A stretch of 64,000 nt of DNA from Myxococcales bacterium (lineage in GTDB: Bacteria > Myxococcota_A > UBA9042): contig CANMNA010000001.1 in the NCBI GenBank assembly GCA_947499075.1, forward strand, positions 8,615 through 72,614, in the 5' to 3' direction. Both the position numbers and the translations under genes were made by a program. A model generated the notes under the pieces. It saw nothing but the letters and a program-made list of their open reading frames with translations, ran no database searches and was not told where the DNA came from. Shown here piece by piece: positions 589-57,048 of the stretch. How positions within the stretch are numbered: the stretch's first letter is position 1; each line of letters opens with the position of its first letter.

Positions 589-609
589 CAGACGCACCCT
601 TTATTCAAC
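589..609 (-). repeat. Dispersed core repeat copy 1 (variant GTTGAATAAAGGGTGCGTCTG)
   Basis: 18/21 match to the consensus GTTGAACAAAGGGTGCGTCCG. It overlaps the stop codon of the 601-2697 CDS and lies directly upstream of the mpg start. Confidence 0.85.
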
Positions 610-2807: not shown

Positions 2808-3050
2808 CTAAGAGGGCGTATTCGAAAAGGTGACCTGCGCGGGGCTCGCGAAGACCGAAGACCTTCACATTTTCACCGTCAGAATAAATTCTGCGGCGAC
2901 AGGTAACGGTGTCGGCCGACGCCGACACCCGGCCGGGCGCCCGCGCAGGCGGGAGCCGTCACCTGTAGCCGCGCAATTCATTGCGACAGCGTCCCAAGCC
3001 GTCATCAACGCTGCGGTTTTCAGTTGACACAATTGAATACACCCCCTAAG
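2808..3050. repeat. Structured dispersed repeat (MITE-like), copy 1, 243 bp including flanking CTAAG
   Basis: About 93% identical to 26325-26552. It has imperfect terminal inverted repeats (AGGGCGTATTCGAA / reverse complement GGGGTGTATTCAAT), CTAAG at both boundaries, and several internal hairpins. Confidence 0.75.
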
Positions 3051-25041: not shown

Positions 25042-26226
25042 ATGACCATGTCGTTTCTCACCGTTTCCCTATTGACCCTGCTACTTGCTGCGAGCCTGTC
25101 GGCCTGTTCCGACGCGGCCAAGCCGGCGTCCGGCGCCGACGCGCAAGCTGTCGCGATCAGCGACGCTGGCGGTGACGTTGTGCCAACAGCGGACGCAGCC
25201 GGCGCAGACGTCGCACCCGATTCCAAGGCCGCCGACGCGGACGCAACCGCAGCGCCCGACGTCGCCGCGGACGCGCCGGCGCCCACTGACGCTGGACCAG
25301 AAGTTGCGGCCGACGCTGCTCCACCAGTTGACACCGTTGCTGCCGATGTGGCAACCGATTCCGGTCCGGCATTGTCCACGGTCACCGGCACGTGGACTTT
25401 GGGCGACTCTGGCGCCAAATACAGCCTGCACGGCCTGTGGGGCGCCGCCAAGGACAAGCTGGTGGCCGTCGGCGAACAGGGTGCCATCCAGTGGTACGAC
25501 GGAGCGGGGTGGCACGCCGAAGCCAAACCAGCGACGATTCAGTGGCTGCATGGCGTCTGGGGCGCGTCGGACAAGGACATTTGGGCGGTTGGTGAGAGCG
25601 CGACGGCTGTGCATTGGGACGGTTCGGCCTGGAAAGTCGTGGCTTTGCCCGTTGACGGCGCCCTGCAAGCTGTGCACGGCACGGCCACCGACGACGTGTG
25701 GACGGTCGGTGACGCCGGCGGCGCGGTGCACTGGGATGGCAAGCTGTGGGCGGCGGTCAAGCTGCCAGTCCAAAACTACTTGTACGGCGTGCACGCCATC
25801 GCCAAAGACGACGTTTGGATCGCCGGCGGCATGGGCACCCTGCTGCATTGGGACGGCAAAGTCTGGACGTCGACACCCGTAGGCTCCAGCGGCATGGACG
25901 ACAACATCGAGGGCGTGTGGGCCTACGGCGCCAAGGACGTCTGGGCCGTGGGCAAAAAGGGTGTGGTGTTCCACAACACCGGCAGCGGATGGACCAAGGT
26001 CGAATCGCCCACCAAGGCCGCTTGGCTTTTCCGAATCTGGGGCTCCGCCAGCAACGACGTGTGGATGGCCGGCAACGGCGGCGTGGTGTTGCACTGGAAC
26101 GGCGAGGCCCTGGCCCAGATCGACATCGGCGAACTCGACGCCTTGCGCGGGATTTGGGGATCGTCGGCCAAGGACATCTGGATGGTCGGGCCCAATAAGA
26201 CGACTTGGCACTACCTGGCACCGTAA
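25042..26226 (+). CDS. Lipoprotein with beta-propeller-like repeats (W.VG..G....WDG..W)
   Basis: I chose the start at MTMSFLTVSLLTLLLAASLSAC (lipobox). An acidic Ala/Asp linker is followed by about 8 repeats such as VWAVGESATAVHWDGSAWK. Confidence 0.7.
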   Translation: MTMSFLTVSLLTLLLAASLSACSDAAKPASGADAQAVAISDAGGDVVPTADAAGADVAPDSKAADADATAAPDVAADAPAPTDAGPEVAADAAPPVDTVAADVATDSGPALSTVTGTWTLGDSGAKYSLHGLWGAAKDKLVAVGEQGAIQWYDGAGWHAEAKPATIQWLHGVWGASDKDIWAVGESATAVHWDGSAWKVVALPVDGALQAVHGTATDDVWTVGDAGGAVHWDGKLWAAVKLPVQNYLYGVHAIAKDDVWIAGGMGTLLHWDGKVWTSTPVGSSGMDDNIEGVWAYGAKDVWAVGKKGVVFHNTGSGWTKVESPTKAAWLFRIWGSASNDVWMAGNGGVVLHWNGEALAQIDIGELDALRGIWGSSAKDIWMVGPNKTTWHYLAP

Positions 26227-26324: not shown

Positions 26325-26552
26325 CTAAGAGGCGGCCTGCGCGGGGCTCGCGAAGACCGAAGACCTTCACATTTTCACCGTCAGAATAAATTCTGCGGCT
26401 ACAGGCAACGGTGTCGGCCTACGCCGACACCCGGCCGGGCGCCCGCGCAGGCGAGCGCCGTCACCTGTAGGTGCGCAATTCATTGCGACGGCGTCCCAAG
26501 CCGTTATCAACGCTGCGGTTTTTAGTTGACACAATCGAATCCACCCTCTAAG
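26325..26552. repeat. Structured dispersed repeat (MITE-like), copy 2, 228 bp including flanking CTAAG
   Basis: Same orientation as copy 1, with 13 substitutions and a 15-nt deletion of the left-end TATTCGAAAAGGTGA. CTAAG at 26325-26329 and 26548-26552. Confidence 0.75.
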
Positions 26553-26653
26553 CAACCGTGACAATTTAAGTCGATCGACTGCAAATTCGACAGGAGCGGC
26601 GAGTCGGCTGTCAAGCTGCGAGCTTGCGGCCCACCCAGCAAGCAATTGAGCCG

Positions 26654-26680
26654 TGTGACAGAACAACTTGTTCTGTCACA
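26654..26680. repeat. Perfect 11-bp-stem palindrome TGTGACAGAAC-aactt-GTTCTGTCACA
   Basis: Read directly from the sequence. It lies in a roughly 410-nt stretch (26553-26964) with no convincing ORF. No T-tract follows it on either strand. Confidence 0.8.
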
Positions 26681-26964
26681 GATCCTAACGCCGCGATCGC
26701 CAAAATCGTGGCGTCAACCGCGGCTCTGCGCCTCCAAAGTCATTGCCTTCTAGTCACCAGACGCCACGCTGCCGCCCAAGCTGGGCGCGCGCCAGCGCAC
26801 GGCAGAGACGATGGCTGACAGGCGAAGTGGGCCGCCATTCTGGTTTGGCCGCGGCGTTGCAGGCCCCGTCGATTCACTGGCTGCTGCTGGACTGCCCGTT
26901 CTGGCGCAGCAACCTGTCGGAGTCTGCGCTCACCGCTGGCAGGCAGGCGCAGCCTGCGCGATCG

Positions 26965-55653: not shown

Positions 55654-57048
55654 ATGACCAAGCCCAAAAAGCCCACCAAAGCGCCGCCCCAATCGGGCGA
55701 GCGCCTGCAAAAAGTCCTCGCGCGCTGTGGTGTTGCATCGCGTCGCGCCGCCGAAGAGCTGATCACCCAAGGCCGCATTGAGGTCAACGGCCATGTCGTG
55801 ACCACGCTGGGCACGCGCGTCGATCCGCTGGTGGCAGAGATCCGCTTGGATGGCGAGCGGTTGCGCATGCCTTCGGAGCGGCTGGTGCTGGTGCTGAACA
55901 AGCCCGTGGGCTACCTGAGCGCGGCCAAGGATCCCGAGGGTCGGCCGTTGGTCTATCACTTGGTCCCGACCAAGCTGGCGCTGCGCTCGATCGGGCGGTT
56001 GGACTTCAACACCGAGGGCGTGCTGCTATTCACCAACGATGGCGACCTGGCCGAGCGGTTGGGCCACGCCCGCCATGCGATTCAGCGTGTCTACGAGGCG
56101 CGGGTCCGCGGTATCCCCGATCAGGAGACGCTGGCGCGGCTGCGTCTGGGCGTGCGGTTGGAAGATGGTCCGGCGCGGGCGGAGCAAGTCGATGTCGTCA
56201 AGCAGACTGAGGCCAACGCCTGGCTGCGCTTGACGCTGCTGGAAGGCCGCAACCGCGAAGTCCGGCGCTTGCTTGAGCGCGTGGGCCATCCGGTGGTGCG
56301 GTTGCGCCGGATCTCGTTTGCGGGCGTGACGGCGCAGGGTCTGGCCCAAGGGCAATGGCGGTTGCTGGACGATCGAGAAATCAACCAGTTGCAACAGAAA
56401 GGCCACGTCGGCGGCTTTGCGCTGCCCCCCGATCCGCGCAAGGGCGAAGTCTCCAAGCCGCGGTTGAGCACCGGTCCGGGGCCTCAATCGACGCCGCAGC
56501 GCCGGGGTGCTGACCGCCATGCCAGCGCAACGGCCGGGCAGCCCGACGCCCGCAGTGCGCCGGTTGAAAACAACCGCCCGCCCCGCAACCCCGGTACCCG
56601 GCCCGACAAGCCTGCGGCAGCACGCGGTGGCGGTCGACCCGCGGCTGACCGCCCCGGCCGCCCCGGCGACGCGCGGGCCAGACCCGACAACGCGCCGGCC
56701 AGACCCGACAACGCGCGGGCCAGACCCGACAACGCGCGGGCCAGACCTGACAACGCGCGGGCCAGACCTGACAACGCGCGGGCCAGACCTGACAACGCGC
56801 GGGCCAAGCCTGACAACGCGCGGGCCAAGCCTGACAACGCGCGGGCCAAGCCTGACAACGCGCGGGCCAAGCCTGACAACGCGCGGGCCAAGCCTGACAA
56901 CGCGCGGGCCAAGCCTGACAACGCCCGCGCCAAACCCGATAACCGGCGGTCTGGACCGCCCGACGGCAAACGTCCCGGTCGACCCGACAACCGCCGCGGC
57001 CGCAGCAACGAGTTGCCGCCCGCCCCACCACCCAGGAGAAGTCGGTGA
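55654..57048 (+). CDS. rluB: 23S rRNA pseudouridine synthase, RluB/RsuA family, with a long repetitive basic tail
   Basis: The S4 domain reads RLQKVLARCGVASRRAAEELI. The catalytic region reads IGRLDFNTEGVLLFTNDGDL. The C-terminal tail is ARPDNAR/AKPDNAR repeats. Confidence 0.85.
   Translation: MTKPKKPTKAPPQSGERLQKVLARCGVASRRAAEELITQGRIEVNGHVVTTLGTRVDPLVAEIRLDGERLRMPSERLVLVLNKPVGYLSAAKDPEGRPLVYHLVPTKLALRSIGRLDFNTEGVLLFTNDGDLAERLGHARHAIQRVYEARVRGIPDQETLARLRLGVRLEDGPARAEQVDVVKQTEANAWLRLTLLEGRNREVRRLLERVGHPVVRLRRISFAGVTAQGLAQGQWRLLDDREINQLQQKGHVGGFALPPDPRKGEVSKPRLSTGPGPQSTPQRRGADRHASATAGQPDARSAPVENNRPPRNPGTRPDKPAAARGGGRPAADRPGRPGDARARPDNAPARPDNARARPDNARARPDNARARPDNARARPDNARAKPDNARAKPDNARAKPDNARAKPDNARAKPDNARAKPDNARAKPDNRRSGPPDGKRPGRPDNRRGRSNELPPAPPPRRSR
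56677..56949 (+). repeat. 21-bp x13 in-frame tandem repeat (GCCAGACCCGACAACGCGCGG and variants)
   Basis: Units start at 56677 and recur every 21 nt. They fall into blocks of AGACCC (3), AGACCT (3) and AAGCCT (6), plus 1 degenerate unit. Confidence 0.95.

What the first reader, a model, noticed from the sequence alone, without database searches (positions are those of the whole stretch)
2808..3050. A 230-243 bp highly structured repeat present twice (second copy 26325-26552), bounded by CTAAG: MITE or unknown ncRNA
**The two copies.** They share orientation and differ by 13 substitutions plus one 15-nt indel at the left end.

**Boundaries.** Both are bounded on each side by CTAAG (2808-2812 and 3046-3050; 26325-26329 and 26548-26552). 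They carry imperfect terminal inverted repeats (left AGGGCGTATTCGAA; right, reverse-complemented, GGGGTGTATTCAAT). CTAA fits the YTAR target known for IS5-type elements, but no transposase is nearby.

**Internal structure.**
- A long stem, GCGGCGACAGGTAACGG...CCGTCACCTGTAGCCGC, encloses two hairpins: GGTGTCGGC-cgac-GCCGACACC (2908-2929) and CCCGC-gcag-GCGGG.
- There are also the palindromes CAGAATAAATTCTG and GCGCAATTCATTGCG.
- There is a CAGCGT...ACGCTG stem followed by CGGTTTT.

**Substitution pattern.** Some inter-copy substitutions fall in loops (cgac versus ctac). Others give G-U-compatible changes, but these support opposite strands, so the transcribed strand, if any, is unresolved.

**Outward promoter and stop overlap.** The right end contains TTGACA (3024-3029), which could act as an outward -35. 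The right CTAAG of copy 1 overlaps the TAG stop of the 3046-4590 gene.
Basis: partly seen in the sequence, partly recalled or inferred. Interest (0 to 1): 0.65.

Follow-up and report, generated by a model that had tools for sequence, protein, structure and literature searches.

The report
Small non-coding transposon (MITE) copies
The 230-243 bp repeat is a miniature, non-coding "jumping DNA" element (a MITE) of an uncultured myxobacterium, which lands on TAA/TTA sites that are often gene stop codons; this is an ordinary kind of element, and only the family is new.

Summary
Copies at 2808-3050 and 26325-26552 are 93% identical over 226 nt, differ by a 15-nt deletion, and have unrelated flanks.

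The window comes from a Myxococcota metagenome contig. Neither repeat motif I scanned for (an element 20-mer and the separate upstream motif) occurs in the 185,579 reference genomes. I found more copies by searching a protein database for spurious ORFs translated across the element:
- three further copies of this family (L005, L006);
- a second 431-nt family, E431, that carries the same ~125-nt palindromic core.

Features that identify a MITE:
- imperfect terminal inverted repeats, G(R)GGGYGTATTCGA;
- flanking direct repeats that change together between copies (CTAAG/CTAAG in the window, CTTAG/CTTAG in L005);
- either orientation relative to neighbouring genes;
- no coding capacity;
- other small transposons nested inside or directly next to copies.

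In three copies the duplicated site overlaps a neighbouring gene's stop codon.

The ncRNA reading is not supported. There is no Rfam match, covariation is no better than in shuffled controls, and no promoter or terminator is detected.

The likely mobilising enzyme is an IS5/IS1182-type transposase encoded elsewhere; it was not found. One open point: the core is shared by two families with different ends and targets, and its stems vary less than its loops.

Verdict: new member of a known kind, low interest.

The parts
2809..2811 (.). Left target-site duplication of copy 1 (TAA, inside CTAAG 2808-2812)
   Evidence: A direct repeat of it lies at 3047-3049. The same position is TTA/TTA in L005 copy L5b.
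2812..3046 (+). MITE-1 copy 1, full length (235 nt between the TAA repeats)
   Evidence: Aligns end to end with copy 2, L5b and L5a, and with the left part of the L006 copy. It lies in the intergenic region between two minus-strand genes: gene A (4590->3046) and gene B (2697->601).
2813..2826 (+). Left terminal inverted repeat AGGGCGTATTCGAA
   Evidence: 11 of 14 positions are complementary to 3032-3045. It is conserved in L5b (GGGGTGTATTCGAA) and L006 (AAGTGTATTCGAA).
2870..2996 (+). Conserved ~125-nt core. It is an end-to-end imperfect palindrome (2876-2989) enclosing two 9-bp GC hairpins, with the small palindromes CAGAAT-AA-ATTCTG and CGCAAT-TC-ATTGCG in its arms.
   Evidence: - It matches its own reverse complement at 71% over 110 nt.
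- It is 86-94% identical in all copies of MITE-1 and of the 431-nt family E431.
- 95% of cells are paired, against 29-50% for slid controls.
3032..3045 (-). Right terminal inverted repeat (reverse complement GGGGTGTATTCAAT)
3047..3049 (.). Right target-site duplication of copy 1 (TAA, inside CTAAG 3046-3050). The CTA at 3046-3048 is the TAG stop codon of gene A on the minus strand.
26326..26328 (.). Left target-site duplication of copy 2 (TAA, inside CTAAG 26325-26329)
26329..26548 (+). MITE-1 copy 2. A 15-nt deletion removes most of its left TIR. Its core lies at 26372-26496.
   Evidence: It sits 100 nt downstream of the plus-strand lipoprotein gene that ends at 26226.
26549..26551 (.). TAA that serves both as the right duplication of copy 2 and as the left duplication of the adjacent MITE-2
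26552..26685 (+). A second, unrelated small TIR element (MITE-2, 134 nt) inserted exactly at copy 2's right-hand TAA. Its own right-hand TAA is at 26686-26688.
   Evidence: It is homologous to four ~124-nt copies in L005 and L006. Those are flanked by TAA/TAA three times and by CTA/CTA once, and one of them is nested inside MITE-1 copy L5a.

Best explanation
**What it is.** The repeat is a non-autonomous DNA transposon (a MITE, here called MITE-1) of an uncultured Myxococcota bacterium. It is ~235 nt long and encodes nothing. It ends in imperfect inverted repeats, G(R)GGGYGTATTCGA...TCGAATACRCCCC(C).

**How it moves.**
- Shown: it duplicates a short A/T-containing target on insertion, either TWA within CTWAG or the whole 5 bp.
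- Inferred: a DDE transposase encoded elsewhere in the genome, most likely of the IS5/IS1182 type, binds the ends and moves it by cut- or copy-and-paste.

**Why it sits at gene ends (inferred).** Such targets are rare in a 64% G+C genome except at stop codons and in intergenic DNA. Insertions therefore pile up at the ends of genes, and the duplication restores the stop codon.

**The 'rich structure'.** It is a ~125-nt palindromic core inherited by descent. The core is shared with a related 431-nt element (E431) that has different ends and a different target (TCNGA). No RNA function is needed to explain the observations.

**Copy 2.** It has lost most of its left end and is probably immobile.
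For: **1. Dispersed family with unrelated flanks.**
- There are two copies in the window.
- A third lies just past the window end on the same genome (L006).
- Two more lie on another contig of the same sample (L5a and L5b in L005).

**2. TIRs are conserved at both ends of the intact copies**.

**3. The flanking repeats co-vary, as a target-site duplication does.**
- w1: CTAAG/CTAAG. w2: CTAAG/CTAA(G). L5b: CTTAG/CTTAG. L5a (old and decayed): CGAAG/CTACG.
- The sister family E431 shows the same logic more strongly. Four independent loci are flanked by TCTGA/TCTGA, TCCGA/TCCGA, TCTGA/TCTGA and TCGGA/TCGGA.

**4. Transposon-rich setting with nested insertions.**
- A 123-nt MITE-2 sits inside L5a, flanked by CTA/CTA. 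The other MITE-1 copies serve as its empty site.
- A 308-nt TIR element sits inside L5b with a 10-bp duplication.
- MITE-2 is inserted exactly at MITE-1's TAA at window 26552 and again in L006.

**5. The duplicated site overlaps a neighbouring gene's stop codon in three copies:** w1, L5a and L5b.

**6. Orientation relative to neighbouring genes is mixed,** 3 sense and 2 antisense.

**7. No evidence for a coding or RNA function.**
- No conserved start codon, and a frame-breaking 1-nt indel in E431.
- No Rfam family.
- No covariation.

**8. Candidate transposase type occurs in the same sample.**
- An IS1182-family IS lies in L009 (NCBIfam 293 bits, cut-off 270).
- It sits in a CCTAGG site.
- Its TIR GGTGTCTGTCGGAGAAC resembles the MITE-1 TIR at about 11 of 17 positions.
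Against: - No autonomous element with matching TIRs was found. Only about 150 kb of DNA from this lineage could be reached.
- The CTAAG-versus-CTTAG contrast for MITE-1 itself rests on one intact copy (L5b) plus one decayed copy.
- No empty site for a MITE-1 insertion could be obtained.
- Unusually for a MITE, the interior core (86-94% identity) is at least as conserved as the ends, and it is shared by a second family with different TIRs.
- Paired columns of the core vary less than unpaired ones: 15 of 90 versus 15 of 37, Fisher p = 0.006. This could reflect a constraint beyond transposition.
Confidence: 0.85

Rival explanations
1. The conserved ~125-nt palindromic core is a functional module that MITEs carry around. 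It could be a structured RNA, a protein-bound or cruciform DNA site, or a bidirectional transcription block. It would be kept by selection, and the transposon arms would only be its vehicle.
For: - The core is shared at 86-94% identity by two families with different TIRs and targets.
- Stems are less variable than loops and junctions, p = 0.006.
- The two AT-rich 6-2-6 palindromes are invariant, apart from one central base in the second (C in all MITE-1 copies and L5d, A in the other E431 copies).
- One G-C to A-U compensatory pair occurs in hairpin C.
- The complementary dinucleotide changes GG->AC (L007) and CC->GT (w2, L009) hit the same two base pairs in different copies.
- Folding z-scores are -4.5 and -5.6.
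Against: - The covariation measures equal the shuffled controls, and the RNAalifold covariation term is unfavourable at +1.39.
- About 12 substitutions break pairs, against 1 compensatory event.
- There is no Rfam match, no promoter or terminator, and orientation to genes is mixed.
- The core tolerates large nested insertions (L5b, L006).
- MITE-1 and E431 also share ~50 nt of weakly similar left arm, so common descent explains the sharing.
Confidence: 0.1
2. It is a dispersed family of small non-coding RNA genes (sRNA paralogues) rather than a transposon.
For: Strong predicted structure on both strands. All copies are intergenic.
Against: - Copies carry TIRs and co-varying flanking duplications.
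- They occur in both orientations relative to neighbouring genes.
- No promoter or terminator is detected.
- There is no Rfam hit and no covariation.
Confidence: 0.03
3. It is a palindrome-associated element moved by an HUH (IS200/IS605 TnpA or RAYT) single-strand transposase, like REP elements or PATEs. These use subterminal hairpins rather than TIRs.
For: - The content is very hairpin-rich.
- The hairpin-bearing core is the best conserved part.
- A Y2_Tnp (PF04986) ORF lies next to one E431 locus (L015).
Against: - HUH elements make no target duplication and have asymmetric ends.
- Here both ends are inverted repeats, and each copy is flanked by the same short repeat, which differs between copies.
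Confidence: 0.03
4. The + strand frame that is open across the element (2812-3024, ~70 codons) encodes a small protein.
For: - The frame is open in all four full-length MITE-1 copies.
- 7 of 10 w1/w2 substitutions in it fall at codon position 3.
Against: - Copy 2 has no start codon: GTG is changed to GCG and the upstream 15 nt are deleted.
- No ribosome-binding site is visible.
- The position-3 bias fades to 11:13:19 when four copies are used.
- A 1-nt indel breaks the frame in E431.
- The only homologue among 5.8 billion proteins is a spurious ORF read in other frames.
- The predicted peptide is an Arg/Pro/Ala-rich translation typical of G+C-rich non-coding DNA.
Confidence: 0.02
5. It is a local segmental duplication with no mobility.
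For: Within the window there are only two copies, 23.5 kb apart and in the same orientation.
Against: - Homology stops exactly at the flanking repeats.
- Further copies lie on other contigs with other flanks.
Confidence: 0.01

Closest known systems
Bacterial MITEs such as Neisseria Correia elements (CREE) and enterobacterial ERIC/IRU (from my own knowledge of the literature)
   Same: - Size of 100-250 bp, non-coding and intergenic.
- Imperfect terminal inverted repeats and a short A/T-containing target duplication.
- Strongly self-complementary, so they fold as long hairpins.
- Variants with internal insertions.
- Frequently next to gene ends.
   Different: - No sequence similarity.
- The target here is TWA/CTWAG, whereas Correia elements use TA.
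- The host is an uncultured Myxococcota lineage, and my literature search turned up no paper describing a myxobacterial MITE.
- A promoter, IHF site or terminator function, as described for Correia elements, is not detectable here.
IS5 / IS1182 family insertion sequences, and their eukaryotic relatives PIF/Harbinger with Tourist-type MITEs
   Same: - Short palindromic A/T-centred targets.
- Canonical Harbinger elements make 3-bp duplications and are grouped phylogenetically with the IS5 family (PMC12730594).
- IS5-group TSDs of 4 bp at YTAR, 3 bp in the IS1031/ISL2 groups, and TAA/TTA for Tourist are from my own knowledge.
- TIRs start with G-rich GGxxGGTG-like ends. E. coli IS5 has GGAAGGTGCGAA. 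The IS1182-family IS in L009 has GGTGTCTGTCGGAGAAC and sits in CCTAGG. MITE-1 has GGGGGTGTATTCGAA.
   Different: - No transposase with matching TIRs was found, so derivation from a particular IS is not shown.
- TIR similarity is modest: about 11 of 17 to the L009 IS, and only the outer ~8 nt to IS5.
- Whether the duplication is 3 or 5 bp cannot be decided, because the element's terminal G...C recreates CTWAG.
E431, the 431-nt TIR element found here in L005, L007, L009 and L008
   Same: - Carries the same ~125-nt palindromic core, plus ~50 nt of weakly similar left arm.
- Same host community.
- Same style of 5-bp palindromic target with a free central base.
   Different: - Different TIRs (ACAGGAASCCCGGCC).
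- Different target (TCNGA rather than CTWAG).
- Unrelated right arm.
- Not present in the window.

Membership tests
MITE (non-autonomous TIR transposon) | Small (less than ~600 bp) and without coding capacity | tested here: met
   - Length is 220-235 nt.
- No frame has a conserved start codon.
- The one long open frame lacks a start in copy 2, and its codon-position bias fades with more copies.
- The public gene calls leave the region intergenic.
MITE (non-autonomous TIR transposon) | Terminal inverted repeats conserved among copies | tested here: met
   Left ends are AGGGCGTATTCGAA, GGGGTGTATTCGAA and AAGTGTATTCGAA. Right ends (reverse complement) are GGGGTGTATTCAAT, AGGGTGGATTCGAT and CCGTTGTATTCGAT.
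MITE (non-autonomous TIR transposon) | Target-site duplication: a direct repeat flanking each copy that differs between copies | tested here: met
   - MITE-1: CTAAG/CTAAG (w1, w2) versus CTTAG/CTTAG (L5b); L5a is decayed.
- The point rests on few copies.
- The sister family E431 has three different central bases across four loci.
MITE (non-autonomous TIR transposon) | Multiple dispersed copies with unrelated flanks | tested here: met
   Five MITE-1 copies on three contigs of one sample. The copy number in the whole genome is unknown.
MITE (non-autonomous TIR transposon) | Insertion polymorphism, i.e. an empty site | not testable with these tools
   - Relatives at 74% and 67% protein identity are not syntenic at this locus and lack the element.
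- Empty sites were obtained only for the elements nested inside MITE-1 copies.
MITE (non-autonomous TIR transposon) | A cognate autonomous IS with the same TIRs | tested here: inconclusive
   - No matching TIR lies next to a transposase in the window or in loci L003-L015.
- The IS1182-family IS in L009 has only similar TIRs.
- Only about 150 kb of lineage DNA was available.
IS5/IS1182-superfamily derivative | Short duplication at a palindromic A/T-centred target (YTAR, TNA or CTAG type) | tested here: met
   The duplication is TAA or TTA within CTWAG. This is compatible with the family but not exclusive to it.
IS5/IS1182-superfamily derivative | TIRs matching those of a member IS | tested here: inconclusive
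   About 11 of 17 positions match the L009 IS1182-family TIR. Only the outer GGxxGGTG is shared with E. coli IS5.
Described structured RNA family (Rfam) | Covariance-model match at or above the gathering score | tested here: not met
   - 0 hits at the gathering threshold in the window and in L005-L009.
- The best sub-threshold hit scores 22.5 bits against a gathering score of 197.
Structured ncRNA in general | Compensatory base-pair changes beyond what relatedness gives | tested here: not met
   - 1 pair of 45 has a double change.
- The covariation score is 0.041 against 0.041 in shuffles.
- The RNAalifold covariation term is +1.39.
- Only six sequences were available, so power is low.
Intrinsic terminator or outward promoter carried by the element | Consensus -35/-10 promoter, or a GC stem followed by a U-run, conserved among copies | tested here: not met
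   - No site is found in either copy by the scans.
- TTGACA is followed 17 nt later by TAAGGC, TAAGCA or TTAGGG.
- The U-run is lost in L5a.
REP/RAYT or IS200/IS605-type palindromic element | No TIRs and no target duplication; asymmetric ends with subterminal hairpins | tested here: not met
   TIRs and co-varying flanking repeats are present.

The most novel reading that the evidence does not exclude
**Reading.** The ~125-nt palindromic core (2870-2996) would be a selected functional module that has been captured or retained by two MITE families with different ends and targets, and is being spread by them through the genome. Candidates are a structured RNA, a cruciform or protein-binding site built around the two near-invariant 6-2-6 AT-rich palindromes, or a bidirectional transcription block.

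**Hints.**
- Stems vary less than loops (p = 0.006).
- Complementary dinucleotide changes sit at the same two base pairs in different copies.

**A related open possibility.** The element's ends resemble the abundant upstream motif GTTGAACAAAGGGTGCGTCC, so MITE ends and a host regulatory site may share a binding protein.
Probability: 0.1. Interest if true: 0.55.

Novelty: new member of a known kind. Interest (0 to 1): 0.22.

Why it matters
- **Annotation.** It explains a structured intergenic repeat that might otherwise be annotated as an RNA gene. It also explains why the repeat abuts stop codons: in a G+C-rich genome the TAA/TAG-containing target is found mainly there.
- **Biology of the lineage.** This uncultured Myxococcota lineage carries several nested MITE families (MITE-1, MITE-2, E431 and a 308-nt element). 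Neither repeat motif I scanned for (an element 20-mer and the upstream motif) occurs in any of the 185,579 reference genomes, and my literature search turned up no paper describing a myxobacterial MITE.
- **Practical use.** These repeats probably contribute to the fragmentation of this organism's metagenome assemblies, and they could serve as strain markers.
- **Method.** Translating a non-coding repeat and looking for spurious ORFs in protein databases recovered DNA copies when DNA searches could not.
- **Limit.** Beyond that, this is an ordinary selfish element.

Tried and rejected
**Searches that found nothing useful.**
- Exact 20-mer scan of 185,579 reference genomes with ACCGTCAGAATAAATTCTGC: 0 hits.
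- The same 20-mer in JGI metagenomes: one chance match inside a gene of an AT-rich contig.
- Second genome scan, with the abundant upstream motif, intended to fish out a related genome: 0 hits.
- Two viral-contig scans with invariant core segments: 0 hits.
- blastn against 72,556 plasmids: no match.
- Orthologous loci in the closest relatives (74% and 67% protein identity, L003 and L004): no element, no motif and no synteny upstream.
- Cluster members of the spurious ORFs: these gave only the same E431 locus from five samples.
- A 2,576-residue concatenation of all open frames as a protein query: it saturated the candidate list and returned nothing, wasting the third search.
- Attempts to read the ISfinder-based reviews for TSD tables: the papers were not held.

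**Readings considered and rejected.**
- Small protein in the open + frame.
- Outward promoter and terminator.
- Segmental duplication.
- HUH-type palindromic element: a TSD is present.
- The core as an independently inserted mini-element: no duplication flanks the core, and the left arm is also weakly shared between the two families.

Full report
**1.

- Copy 1 (2808-3050) and copy 2 (26325-26552) lie in the same orientation. They are 93% identical over the 226 nt that align without gaps.
- From 2835 onward they differ by 13 substitutions. Copy 2 also lacks 15 nt at its left end.
- Similarity starts and stops exactly at the pentamer CTAAG on both sides of both copies, and the flanks are unrelated.
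- The sequence folds far better than shuffles on either strand: z = -4.5 and -5.6.
- Its centre matches its own reverse complement at 71% over 110 nt, so the 'rich structure' is one long imperfect palindrome enclosing two GC hairpins.
- blastn with 7-nt words and nhmmer find no other copy in the window.

**2. Context**

- The long + strand ORF 388-2811 is spurious.
- The real genes are all predicted lipoproteins:
  - gene A, 4590->3046 (-), cysteine-rich with Dicty_CTDC repeats;
  - gene B, 2697->601 (-), with an HExxH motif;
  - gene C, ~25042-26226 (+).
- Copy 1 fills most of the A-B intergenic region. Its right-hand CTA is gene A's TAG stop codon.
- Copy 2 lies 100 nt after gene C.
- Gene B's exact protein is encoded on contig k141_1311616 of ENA analysis ERZ27280213, which carries the same locus including copy 1. 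The nearest named relatives of gene B are 'Myxococcales bacterium' MAGs, at no more than 74% identity.

**3. Finding more copies**

DNA searches failed:
- A 20-mer from the element is absent from 185,579 reference genomes.
- In JGI metagenomes it gave one chance hit.
- It is absent from viral contigs and from plasmids.
- The two nearest relatives lack the element.

What worked was translating the open frames across the element and searching the protein collection for spurious ORFs:
- That search gave P0121 and its contig L005, from the same sample.
- An exhaustive search with P0121 gave P0122-P0125 and loci L007-L010.
- L006 extends the window's own genome 1.5 kb to the right.

**4. What the extra copies show**

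*MITE-1 copies in L005*:
- L5b is a full-length copy with both TIRs, flanked by CTTAG/CTTAG rather than CTAAG. It is split by a 308-nt TIR element that duplicated CCGGCCGGGC.
- L5a is an older full-length copy whose flanks have decayed to CGAAG/CTACG. It carries a 123-nt element (MITE-2) nested in its right arm between CTA repeats.

*A third copy in the window's genome:* L006 holds another MITE-1 copy directly to the right of a MITE-2 copy.

*MITE-2 in the window:*
- The 134 nt immediately right of copy 2 (26552-26685) are another MITE-2 copy, flanked by TAA/TAA.
- The 'G' of copy 2's right CTAAG is therefore probably MITE-2's first base. The MITE-1 duplication is most simply the 3-bp TWA, with the element's terminal G...C recreating CTWAG. 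A 5-bp duplication is not excluded.

*Insertion pattern:*
- In w1, L5a and L5b the duplicated site overlaps a neighbouring gene's stop codon.
- Orientation relative to neighbouring genes is mixed.

Together these are the defining features of a MITE. Palindromic A/T-centred targets and G-rich GGxxGGTG-type ends point to the IS5/IS1182 group:
- An IS1182-family IS in the same sample sits in CCTAGG and has a TIR that matches MITE-1's at about 11 of 17 positions.
- E. coli IS5 ends are GGAAGGTGCGAA.
- Harbinger relatives of IS5 make 3-bp duplications (PMC12730594).
- No autonomous partner with matching ends was found.

**5. A second family shares the core**

- Two further L005 hits (L5c, L5d), together with L007, L009 and a partial copy in L008, belong to a 431-nt element I call E431.
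- E431 has its own TIRs (ACAGGAASCCCGGCC).
- Its flanking repeats are TCTGA, TCCGA, TCTGA and TCGGA, the same on both sides of each copy.
- E431 contains the same ~125-nt core at 86-91% identity, plus ~50 nt of weakly similar left arm. Its right arm is unrelated.
- The L008 partial copy abuts a truncated ORF with a weak (sub-threshold) match to IS4-family transposases.

**6. Is the structure selected?**

Evidence against selection on pairing:
- On six core sequences, RNAalifold pairs the core end to end around two internal hairpins, but the covariation term is unfavourable at +1.39.
- All covariation measures equal the shuffled controls, and only one pair shows a double change.
- About a dozen substitutions break pairs.
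- Rfam has nothing.
- The promoter and terminator scans find nothing in either copy.

Hints in the other direction:
- Paired columns vary less than unpaired ones: 15 of 90 versus 15 of 37, p = 0.006.
- The two AT-rich 6-2-6 palindromes are invariant, apart from one central base in the second (C in all MITE-1 copies and L5d, A in the other E431 copies).
- L007 carries GG->AC in the 5' arm at exactly the two base pairs where w2 and L009 carry CC->GT in the 3' arm. This suggests arm-to-arm conversion or recombination with an unseen fully paired variant.

These hints fit DNA-level palindrome dynamics, or a need for end-binding sequences, as well as they fit a function. I give a functional core about 10%.

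**7. Coding?**

- One + strand frame is open in all four full-length copies, and 7 of 10 w1/w2 substitutions fall at its third codon positions.
- Against this: copy 2 has no start codon, the bias fades to 11:13:19 with four copies, E431 breaks the frame, and no protein homologue exists. I reject the coding reading.

**8. Verdict**

- This is a new MITE family in an uncultured myxobacterium, most likely mobilised by an IS5/IS1182-type transposase.
- It is ordinary in kind, so interest is low.
The ncRNA, promoter and terminator suggestions are not supported.

Noticed in passing
window 590-609(-), 6887(+), 10254(+), 11061(+), 13393(-), 16563(+), 16598(+), 21069(-), 24955(+), 29297(+); also L001 12708(+), just left of the window: - A ~35-nt motif, aAnaTCAGnnaGTTGAACAAAGGGTGCGTCCGaAtt, occurs 10 times in the window against 0 expected by chance. 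Five copies match the 20-nt core exactly.
- All copies lie in the first 30 kb.
- Most lie 20-190 nt upstream of start codons, in the orientation of the gene. The genes include the glycine-cleavage T protein, a DNA glycosylase, a porin, an AAA ATPase and gene C.
- The motif is absent from relatives, from loci L005-L015, and (as an exact 20-mer) from all reference genomes.
- It does not fit sigma-70, ECF or sigma-54 spacing.
- Its 3' half GGGTGCGTCCGAA differs from the MITE-1 TIR GGGTGTATTCGAA by three transitions only. Its 5' half resembles the MITE's subterminal GTTGACACAA.
- I could not explain it.
   Followed up: partly
window 26552-26685 (TAA at 26549-26551 and 26686-26688): A second small TIR element (MITE-2, TIR GGAACGGTCAAG) is inserted exactly at the right-hand TAA of MITE-1 copy 2. 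Four ~124-nt relatives lie in L005 and L006. One is nested inside a MITE-1 copy, and one abuts the left end of another.
   Followed up: yes
L006 8550-8736 (about window coordinate 65,320, beyond the window end): A third MITE-1 copy in the window's genome. It is interrupted after the first third of the core by yet another palindromic sequence (GGGCACCGGCAAAATCAAGTCGATTTTGTCGGTGGCCC). The contig ends before this can be resolved.
   Followed up: partly
window 29991-30078: An 11-nt tandem repeat, CGAAGCCAGAA, with about 8 perfect copies. It ends ~50 nt upstream of the start codon of ribosomal protein S12 (rpsL, ATG at 30128). The ribosomal-protein operons that follow explain the strong A>T skew from 30 to 49 kb.
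   Followed up: no
window 56599-56991: A 21-nt tandem repeat of about 13 or more copies (65-100% identity to the reference unit) in a 71% G+C stretch. It is probably a 7-residue repeat within a protein.
   Followed up: no
L005 14284-14593 (inside MITE-1 copy L5b): A 308-nt TIR element (ends CAATGCCGTTCGGTTAAG / CTTAACCGATCGGCATTG) that duplicated 10 bp (CCGGCCGGGC) of the MITE-1 core. Part of it recurs in L009 and L010.
   Followed up: partly
L009 5426-7472; L008 10001-10654 and 11263-11616: - L009 holds an IS1182-family insertion sequence. Its transposase is 434 aa (NCBIfam 293 bits), and the IS is flanked by CCTAGG.
- In L008, a truncated ORF with a weak (sub-threshold) match to IS4-family transposases abuts a partial E431 copy, next to a DUF772 transposase fragment.
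- The E431 locus of L007 recurs unchanged in five different samples.
   Followed up: partly
window 2898-3045 versus 26400-26547: Substitutions between the two window copies show three-base periodicity: 9 of the 13 substitutions fall at the third position of one + strand frame. That frame is open in all four full-length MITE-1 copies. The signal weakens when more copies are added, and I judged it to be chance.
   Followed up: yes
core columns 26-27 and 101-102 (window 2895-2896 / 2969-2970; copy 2 26471-26472): Copy 2 and the L009 E431 copy carry CC->GT in the 3' arm of the long stem. The L007 E431 copy carries the exactly complementary GG->AC in the 5' arm. These are the two halves of a double compensatory change, found in different copies and in different families.
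   Followed up: partly
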